Source: Eledone cirrhosa (Eukaryota). Taken from it: a DNA stretch of 64,000 nt. The stretch's first letter is position 1, and the number at the start of each line of letters is the position of its first letter. This document shows positions 21,265-22,660 of the stretch, in pieces. The notes beneath the pieces were generated by a model. The model saw only the letters and a list, made by a program, of their open reading frames with translations. It did not search any database and had not been told where the DNA came from. Position numbers and translations under genes: made by a program. Location: NCBI GenBank assembly GCA_964016885.1, contig OZ024740.1:335978001-336042000 (forward strand), read 5' to 3'.

Positions 21265-22134
21265 CAATATATATATATATATATATATATATATATATAT
21301 ATATATATATATATATATATATATATATATATATATATATATATATATATATATATATATATATATATATATATATATATATATATATATATATTTTAGT
21401 ACAGCATAGACCAAGCATATACGGCCAAGCTAGCGTGTATGCATATTCGGTTTGTAACTTTAGCACTCAGATGAGGTAAGACCCCAGAGTAATAACATTA
21501 TGTTCAGACAGCTTAGGAAATCAGATATAGCAGTCGGCAGTCCGACCGCATTACCAGAGCAACGAAAATACAGGACCCAGGAAAAGATGTTTTACTGACC
21601 TGGACATAACGCTGAGGCTGAGTGTAAAATATTTATAATCCACATGGTGTATCCACAATATAGATCGCAATATCGCAGGCAACATCAGCGCTAAATATAT
21701 ATATATATATATATATATATATATATATATATATATATATATATATATATATATATATATATATATATATATATATATATATATGGTATTAGGATTGGTG
21801 CTCTGAAATAGCGATGTATACATGAATGTATGTATAGTATATTTGGCAATATACCGTATGATTAATTAAAAACATTTAGAAGACCTTTATATGTATATAT
21901 ATCAGGATCAGAACTGTTTCATTCGAAAGAAATCATCTGTTCTACGCTGTAGAAGGCGTTTCTATATTAAATTTGATATTTACACTCTACTAATCCATTG
22001 AGTGCCTTACATACCCCCGAATGTACACGAGACTCATATATATATATATATATATATATATATATATATATATATATATATATATATATATAAAAAAAAA
22101 AAAATAAGATGCTGAGGTTATATATATCGTTTAA

Positions 22135-22222
22135 TCATAATAATTATTTCTACGGCTCTCCATGCAATCGATATGTCCTTCATGCATTTGCTGTTGATTA
22201 TGAGAACGGTTTCCTCAGATGA
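22135..22222 (-). ncRNA. Type I hammerhead motif with extended stem II (family D)
   Basis: UCAU-CUGAGGA-A-ACCGUUCUC...GAGAGCCGU-A-GAAA-UAAUUA-UU-AUGA. Stem I is UCAU/AUGA and stem III is the palindrome AUAAUUAU. Confidence 0.7.
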
Positions 22223-22237
22223 AGATCGATATATTTG

Positions 22238-22660
22238 ATATGCCGCTGACAGGAAAACACACATCTTAATGCCTGTGCGCCCAGCATACATATATATATA
22301 TATATATAATATATATATATATATGACAGGAAAACACACATCTTAATGCCTGTGCGCCCAGCATACATATATATATATATATATAATATATATATATATA
22401 TGACAGGAAAACACACATCTTAATGCCTGTGCGCCCAGCATACATATATATATATATATATATATATATATAATATATATATATATATATATATATATAT
22501 ATATATATATATATATATATATATATATATATATATATATATATATATATATATATATATATATATATATATATATATATATATATATATATATATATAT
22601 ATATATGTATGCTGGGCGCATAGGCATTAAGATGTGTGTTTTCCTGTCAGCGGCATATAT
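22238..22660. repeat. Three tandem ~77-bp units (TGACAGGAAAACACACATCTTAATGCCTGTGCGCCCAGCATAC+TA) and an inverted copy across (TA)n
   Basis: Units at ~22247, 22324 and 22401; inverted copy at 22605-22660. Confidence 0.9.

What the first reader, a model, noticed from the sequence alone, without database searches (positions are those of the whole stretch)
22120..22660. Family D hammerhead, and a recurrent mismatch at the first stem II pair
Minus strand 22135-22222 has an intact CUGAGGA/GAAA core, an AUU triplet, a palindromic stem III and a long stem II. Upstream sequence is triplicated and then inverted across (TA)n. The 10.1-11.1 position is A.A here, U.U in family A and C.U at 33003-33047, instead of the usual R-Y pair. 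A non-canonical feature shared across unrelated families suggests a tolerated or selected variant, perhaps with attenuated cleavage (inference).
Basis: partly seen in the sequence, partly recalled or inferred. Interest (0 to 1): 0.7.

Follow-up and report, generated by a model that had tools for sequence, protein, structure and literature searches.

The report
Retrotransposon hammerhead with drifting first pair
This is the tail stub of a Penelope-like jumping gene carrying a predicted self-cutting RNA whose catalytic letters stay fixed across the family while one normally conserved base pair drifts through A·A, A·G, U·G and U·U, likely because that pair is no longer required; a U·U at this spot is already published.

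Summary
The motif is real: a type I hammerhead (minus 22222-22135) with A·A at 10.1/11.1, at the 3' end of a roughly 200-nt stub of a Hydra-clade Penelope-like element, with at least 509 copies in the genome. The triplication and inverted arm carry no ribozyme and were copied from this locus. A·A is not a family-wide state: 109 copies show A·A 38, U·G 30, A·G 24, U·U 16, U-A 1, clustered by subfamily, while the 11 core letters show no subfamily-level change. U·U is already in print (Perreault 2011; 14 of 26 Hydra rows in Craig 2021 File S2); A·A and A·G are not in those rows. Best reading: a tolerated, relaxed position, not one shared selected feature; selected attenuation remains possible. 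Cleavage is untested. Earlier scan notes describe other mismatches in this genome's hammerheads (C·C at pair 4; C·A at the helix base).

The parts
22092..22289 (-). 5'-truncated 3'-end stub of a Hydra-clade Penelope-like element (family D), set in (TA)n; lacks the optional ~90-nt tail seen in other copies
   Evidence: 94-98% matches over 161 nt at 40 scored loci; longer copies extend into GIY-YIG and RT coding sequence; 3' ends cluster at +40-49 (52 of 106) and +130-139 (22 of 106) from the cut site
22135..22222 (-). Type I hammerhead ribozyme motif with short palindromic stem III
   Evidence: sequence, descriptor scan, column conservation in 109 copies
22212..22218 (-). Core CUGAGGA (C3-A9)
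   Evidence: no subfamily-level change except N7 (this half was part of the copy filter)
22211..22211 (-). Position 10.1, A here; A 62 / U 47 in 109 copies
22151..22151 (-). Position 11.1, A here; G 54 / A 39 / U 16 in 109 copies
   Evidence: genome-wide pattern gave G 54, A 30, U 16, C 0 in the first 100 of 161 matches (counted by eye)
22152..22210 (-). Stem II (pairs 2-10) with C·C at pair 4 (22208 and 22154) and a 40-nt loop region
   Evidence: C 108 of 109 and C 102 of 109 at the two positions
22139..22150 (-). GAAA, palindromic stem III AUAAUUAU (22147-22140) and H17 (U here, A in 20 of 109)
   Evidence: self-duplex -2.6 kcal/mol
22122..22234 (-). Distal extension of stem I (22234-22227 with 22129-22122)
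   Evidence: pair 22231/22125 is U-A in 85 and A-U in 19 of 109 copies, a compensatory change; one inherited event
22324..22443 (-). Two extra tandem copies of the stub's first 43 nt plus TA spacer (77-nt period); no ribozyme core
   Evidence: they carry both letters peculiar to this copy, a pair found in no other of 109 copies
22607..22654 (+). Inverted copy of the stub's first 48 nt beyond a (TA)n tract; no ribozyme core
   Evidence: carries the same two copy-specific letters

Best explanation
The motif is the hammerhead at the 3' end of a Hydra-clade Penelope-like retrotransposon, and its first stem II pair differs between subfamilies while the catalytic letters do not, likely because this predicted slow, dimer-forming, protein-assisted ribozyme no longer needs a Watson-Crick pair there. 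Shown: element identity, subfamily states, frozen core, mixed states across lineages. Inferred: two motifs in a tandem transcript pair through the AUAAUUAU palindrome; positions 10.1 and 11.1 only have to stack on the sheared A9·G12 pair above a long stem II; selection on intrinsic rate is weak, so source elements carrying U·U, U·G, A·G or A·A all spread. This genomic copy has one core and no ORF, so it is likely an inert stub.
For: Element: upstream DNA of longer copies encodes a C-terminal GIY-YIG (PF01541, E 0.0014, below the curated cut-off) with DKT, CxCX5C, CxxC and CxH motifs. Turnover: A·A 38, U·G 30, A·G 24, U·U 16, U-A 1 of 109 scored motifs (3 more had no 3' half); with the two letters masked the states need 18 changes on the tree against 57.9 for shuffled labels, 0 of 200 as low. 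Positions 10.1 and 11.1 are the most variable columns between 22222 and 22135; 11 core columns hold at least 105 of 109. Across lineages, the left-out pair is mismatched in 19 of 33 for pair 1, 1 of 29 for pair 2, 0 of 28 for pair 3 and 4 of 30 for pair 5. Mismatch letters vary (U·U 7, A·A 3, C·A 2, A·G, G·G, C·U 1 each) and 10 of 25 are Watson-Crick. Literature: natural U10.1·U11.1 reported, and said to be the best tolerated mispair (PMC3088659 section 8); metazoan PLE hammerheads cleave poorly in vitro and as dimers (PMC4209133); an anole PLE hammerhead cleaves only with protein and is dispensable for insertion in vitro (PMC11167929 passages).
Against: No cleavage data for any variant. Pair 1 carries 3 of 21 subfamily-level changes in 135 columns, more than a uniform rate predicts (Poisson P 0.004; 0.03 if only 60 columns are free), which pure relaxation does not fully explain; the sample was partly chosen on these letters. 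Family D reached a Watson-Crick state in only 1 of 109 copies, and family A has a sister subfamily changed on both sides yet still mismatched (C·A, 74 of the first 100 of 1,182 non-U copies, counted by eye). No head-to-tail second core was found in the 5 longer loci examined, so the dimer partner is assumed. Copy ends do not mark the cut site.
Confidence: 0.6

Rival explanations
1. The mismatch is selected as a brake: it slows self-cleavage so that uncut RNA survives as template, and the pair is retuned as subfamilies replace each other.
For: Excess of subfamily-level changes at the two sites; 1 of 109 Watson-Crick in family D; U·U to C·A double change in family A; uncut RNA is the dominant insertion substrate in vitro for an anole PLE; copies end 40-140 nt past the cut site.
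Against: Three steps that avoid Watson-Crick pairs have a chance of about (2/3)^3 = 0.3 (hand estimate); 10 of 25 lineages, some with many copies, are Watson-Crick; sister lineages move between C·A and U-A.
Confidence: 0.25
2. The motif no longer cleaves and is kept as a folded protein-binding or priming signal, so the first pair is free.
For: Hammerhead-constrained fold -8.1 against free fold -15.3 kcal/mol; z -0.08; no copy ends at the cut site; core mutants do not affect insertion in vitro in the anole element.
Against: Variation keeps to hammerhead rules: only N7, H17 (U or A, never G) and pair 1 change, with the core fixed; the anole motif does cleave with protein.
Confidence: 0.1
3. The register is wrong: 10.1 and 11.1 are extra nucleotides on both sides, extending the known 5' extra base of minimal PLE hammerheads, and pair 2 plays the G10.1-C11.1 role.
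For: Minimal PLE hammerheads have a conserved nucleotide between A9 and G10.1 (PMC4209133); 4 lineages here have that form with G-C.
Against: Pair 2 in the 15 mismatch lineages is G-C in only 3; relatives of one family hold paired and mismatched states at equal spacing; the C·C stays at step 4 as in paired lineages.
Confidence: 0.04
4. The A·A is decay of this single dead copy, or the motif is a chance match.
For: The copy has private changes at five or more columns.
Against: 38 dispersed copies share A·A; reversed-pattern controls 0; compensatory change in stem I.
Confidence: 0.01

Closest known systems
Hammerheads of Hydra-clade Penelope-like elements (Craig et al. 2021, PMC8557442; section 11, passages, supplement part 2 of 59)
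   Same: Type I motif near the 3' end, short stem III, (TA)n targets, DKT and CxCX5C protein motifs; first pair U·U in 14 of 26 rows and U·C in 1 (written as part of the core, not discussed in the passages seen).
   Different: No A·A or A·G row; stem II arms there span at most about 26 nt against 60 here; this element is about 4 kb with a 3' untranslated region of about 1.2 kb, against 'generally under 3 kb'.
Minimal and small-helix-III PLE hammerheads (Cervera and De la Pena 2014, PMC4209133; text parts 1-2 of 4, supplement parts 1-2 of 3)
   Same: PLE-linked type I motifs with palindromic helix III, proposed dimers, low activity; the D. willistoni row reads U before helix II and an extra U before GAAA, i.e. 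U·U, in 450-bp tandem repeats that resemble family A.
   Different: The paper calls G10.1-C11.1 highly conserved with one extra 5' base; here both sides are unpaired and no G-C is present in family D.
Natural core variants including U10.1·U11.1 (Perreault et al. 2011, PMC3088659; section 8 and passages)
   Same: Mismatch at the base of stem II in a natural hammerhead.
   Different: Reported as a rare U·U; purine-purine, C·A and C·U states and subfamily turnover are not mentioned in what I read.
Short-stem-III hammerheads that cleave as dimers (Lunse, Weinberg, Breaker 2017; not held, seen only through reviews PMC6765202 and PMC6466107)
   Same: PLE-associated, palindromic short stem III, dimer cleavage.
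   Different: Could not check whether its alignments already show this mismatch.
Non-LTR retrozymes (bioRxiv 10.64898/2026.07.22.740005, part 1 of 5)
   Same: Family A in this window (426-433-nt tandem units with one hammerhead each) fits this kind.
   Different: Family D is the end of a coding element, not a tandem unit.

Membership tests
Hammerhead ribozyme, type I | CUGANGA and GAAA core with NUH triplet | tested here: met
   core fixed in 109 copies
Hammerhead ribozyme, type I | Three helices, stem I open | tested here: met
   compensatory pair in distal stem I; stem III stable only as a predicted dimer
Hammerhead ribozyme, type I | R10.1-Y11.1 pair (consensus feature with published exceptions) | tested here: not met
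   A·A here; 0 G-C or A-U in 109 copies; U·U exception in PMC3088659
Hammerhead ribozyme, type I | Match to an Rfam hammerhead model | tested here: not met
   no match at E up to 10 in 22100-22275
Hammerhead ribozyme, type I | Self-cleavage after H17 | not testable with these tools
   no RNA holder listed; needs an assay
Hydra-clade Penelope-like element | RT followed by C-terminal GIY-YIG | tested here: met
   broken ORF in L054 with RT motifs read by eye and PF01541 at E 0.0014, below cut-off
Hydra-clade Penelope-like element | DKT motif; CxCX5C linker; CxxC and CxH around the conserved E and N | tested here: met
   ADKTD, CNCRNPGSC, CDLC..E, N..CLH in L054 against section 11
Hydra-clade Penelope-like element | N-terminal RWK motif | tested here: inconclusive
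   not seen in the decayed L054 frames translated
Hydra-clade Penelope-like element | (TA)n insertion preference, 5' truncation, inverted 5' arms | tested here: met
   flanks of L001-L050, start positions
Hydra-clade Penelope-like element | Placement in the clade by RT phylogeny | not tested
   reference proteins were seen only as supplement text
Short-stem-III dimer-cleaving hammerheads | Palindromic stem III | tested here: met
   AUAAUUAU
Short-stem-III dimer-cleaving hammerheads | Second core in tandem on the same strand | tested here: not met
   absent at this locus and in 5 longer loci; this concerns these truncated copies, not the source element

The most novel reading that the evidence does not exclude
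Position 10.1/11.1 is a fast-evolving rate knob of retrotransposon hammerheads: successive source elements of one family stepped U·U, U·G, A·G, A·A under selection, and the purine-purine states add a third sheared pair to the G8·A13/A9·G12 stack (motif recalled, not confirmed in a paper) that holds the ribozyme off until the element's protein binds.
Probability: 0.15. Interest if true: 0.6.

Novelty: new variant of a known kind. Interest (0 to 1): 0.32.

Why it matters
Hammerhead search descriptors usually demand a pair before GAAA, so about half of this genome's lineages could be missed or misparsed. Family D supplies a natural allelic series at a junction thought to be conserved, on an almost constant background (2-3 differences in 135 nt between the U·G, A·G and A·A subfamilies), which makes it a clean set for asking whether PLE hammerheads are tuned or merely tolerated. 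The basic observation, a mismatch at this pair in PLE hammerheads, is already visible in published tables, which limits the surprise.

Tried and rejected
Top-hit sampling suggested A·A was the family consensus (28 of 31 scored); rejected as query bias after pattern searches with the position left open. Rfam scans gave no hammerhead among the 150 of 285 window matches shown or in the narrow scan. Copy ends as a record of cleavage: by eye at most 1 of the first 100 of 290 matches begins near the cut site, and 1 of 106 ends within 10 nt before it (17 ends at +10-19 are probably alignment breaks); this is uninformative. The two-sided-insertion register was rejected. A link to the neighbouring non-LTR fragment at 22.8-24.5 kb was dropped because family D copies continue into their own ORF elsewhere. 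Age order of subfamilies: A·A and A·G copies are closer to their majority (median 0.022) than U·G and U·U (0.044, 0.048), but sampling is biased and the groups are heterogeneous, so direction is only suggested. A mutational scan paper (PMC9901934 passages) gave no numbers for this pair; a search for the triple sheared motif gave nothing usable. Novelty searches; none returned a paper discussing A·A or A·G at 10.1/11.1, but Lunse 2017, Ruffner 1990 and Nelson and Uhlenbeck 2008 could not be read, figures are not held, and 57 of 59 parts of the Craig supplement were seen only as search hits.

Full report
Observation. On the minus strand the sequence reads UCAU CUGAGGA, a 60-nt arm from A10.1 (22211) to A11.1 (22151), GAA, the palindrome AUAAUUAU, U17 and AUGA. 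Stem II pairs from step 2 to step 10 apart from a C·C at step 4. No shift of register gives A11.1 a partner, since the first four letters after A9 are A, A, C, C. The tandem unit (period 77, 3.0 copies, 98%) and the inverted arm at 22607-22654 are as described. My scan found family A with U·U (7 of 7 copies), 33044 with C·U, and a further motif at minus 2992-2926 with G-C that the finding omits. The descriptor is specific: 120 hits in 1,414,000 nt against 2 in reversed sequence. Rfam has no matching model here, and the monomer does not prefer the hammerhead fold.

What carries it. The 161-nt query has 1,119 first-look candidates in the genome, 40 scored, at 94-100%; an exact 22-letter pattern has 509 matches and 0 in the control. 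Longer copies run 5' through about 1.2 kb of untranslated sequence into a GIY-YIG domain and a broken RT. L054 shows DKT, a CxCX5C linker, CxxC and CxH, the features listed for the Hydra clade of Penelope-like elements (PMC8557442 section 11). Copies are mostly short, often in (TA)n, and often have inverted 5' arms. The window copy is a stub of about 200 nt. Its tandem units and inverted arm lack the core and carry two letters found together in no other of 109 copies, so they were made from this copy, probably by template switching at TA-like ends (inference). They are not part of a ribozyme mechanism.

The pair within family D. The best hits to the window copy were A·A in 28 of 31, but that is query bias. 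With 11.1 left open, the first 100 of 161 matches were G 54, A 30, U 16, C 0 (by eye). Thirty motifs from loci taken in chromosome order were U·G 15, A·A 9, U·U 6; all 109 scored motifs, a mix of biased and ordered samples, were A·A 38, U·G 30, A·G 24, U·U 16, U-A 1, and 3 more lacked a 3' half. On a tree built with both letters masked, the states need 18 changes against 57.9 when shuffled, so they are inherited subfamily states, though many branches are weak. The U·G, A·G and A·A majorities differ at only 2, 3 and 5 of 135 columns. Inside the ribozyme, 10.1 and 11.1 are the most variable columns (minor share 0.43 and 0.50), ahead of N7 (0.15) and H17 (0.18); the 11 core columns are at least 105 of 109 constant, part of this being built into my filter. 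One distal stem I pair changes on both sides. Source elements therefore kept the catalytic letters and let this pair change at least three times.

The other families. Family A has 26,739 pattern matches, 97 of the first 100 U·U; 1,182 have another letter at 11.1, and 74 of the first 100 of those are a C·A subfamily (by eye). The 33044 family is C·U 10, C·C 3, A-U 2, U·U 1 of 16. In the survey (135 ten-kb stretches, 10 of them beside the window, plus the window), 32 clusters were found; of 25 in the symmetric register, 15 are mismatched at pair 1 and 10 Watson-Crick; one of the 15 is a 1:1 tie and one looks weak; 4 more have the known 5' extra base with G-C. Leaving each pair out of the filter in turn, mismatches were 19 of 33 at pair 1, 1 of 29 at pair 2, 0 of 28 at pair 3 and 4 of 30 at pair 5. 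Independent letters would give about 7 Watson-Crick of 25 (hand calculation); 10 is not different (P 0.15). The mismatch is common, takes many forms and is not universal.

How it likely works. In solved structures A9·G12 is a sheared pair next to G10.1-C11.1 (PMC11300833, one passage). U·U is reported in nature and as the best tolerated mispair (PMC3088659, citing Ruffner 1990, which I did not see). Metazoan PLE hammerheads cleave weakly and as dimers (PMC4209133; review PMC6765202), and the one tested with its protein cleaved only with it and was not needed for insertion (PMC11167929). I infer that family D motifs dimerise through AUAAUUAU in tandem transcripts, that the long stem II and the protein hold the junction, and that selection on the first pair is relaxed (0.6). 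Against this, the pair carries 3 of 21 subfamily-level changes (P 0.004-0.03; sample partly chosen on these letters) and rarely becomes Watson-Crick in D or A, which leaves room for a selected brake (0.25). Copy ends give no record of cutting, so a non-catalytic role is not excluded (0.1).

Comparison. In File S2 of PMC8557442, 14 of 26 Hydra-clade rows are U·U, 1 U·C, 7 G-C, 3 G·U and 1 has an extra G with A-U (two rows are duplicates); one non-Hydra row is C·A (my reading of the columns). The D. willistoni row in the PMC4209133 supplement is U·U, although the text calls G-C highly conserved; one unassignable GAAA label there reads AGAAA. So the feature works like, and belongs with, Hydra-clade PLE hammerheads. 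What I did not find in print is A·A or A·G as a subfamily state, or stepwise turnover within one family; the unread Lunse 2017 paper may bear on this.

Verdict. Observation confirmed, interpretation partly supported, new variant of a known kind, interest 0.32. Earlier scan notes pointed me to the Hydra clade table and the C·C at pair 4; I checked both here.

Noticed in passing
window 2926-2992 minus: Hammerhead with canonical G10.1-C11.1 and stem III ACCAUGGU; a relative in L250 has A·A at that pair.
   Followed up: partly
window 22208 and 22154; L131, L149, L089 and others: C·C at stem II pair 4 is nearly fixed in family D, and pair 4 is mismatched in 9 of 25 lineages; far more constant than pair 1.
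   Followed up: partly
window 19262-20651, 31999-32807, 47188-48366: Family A: 426-433-nt tandem and inverted units with one U·U hammerhead each, retrozyme-like; 26,739 pattern matches genome-wide, with a C·A sister subfamily.
   Followed up: partly
window 19020-19135 minus and 49665-49780 plus: Two diverged copies with CUGAGGA followed by two short hairpins and distant GAAA words; may be a branched or rearranged hammerhead like those in earlier scan notes.
   Followed up: no
window 32950-33110; L211-L240: The 33044 family occurs as fold-back insertions whose two arms join in or just before the CUGAUGA core, so stem I is often lost on the 5' side.
   Followed up: partly
window 60643-60995: 176-nt inverted repeat with 1 nt between arms, each arm starting at a CUGANGA word.
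   Followed up: no
window 22796-24450, 25349-26743, 37025-40442 minus; 42294-43412 plus: Copies of a non-LTR retrotransposon with RT (PF00078) and a C-terminal cysteine-rich and endonuclease-like region, ending in (TAA)n; R4/Dong-like by recall.
   Followed up: partly
L098, L083, L110: Hammerheads with stem II arms of 79-97 nt, all U·U at pair 1 and sharing stem III ACAAUUGU.
   Followed up: no
G000:C1:217.37-217.72 Mb (L300-L310): Eleven family D copies share a stem III change within 350 kb, probably a segmental tandem amplification.
   Followed up: no
window 46403-46801 plus: Decayed reading frame resembling a mariner-type transposase fragment (by recall).
   Followed up: no
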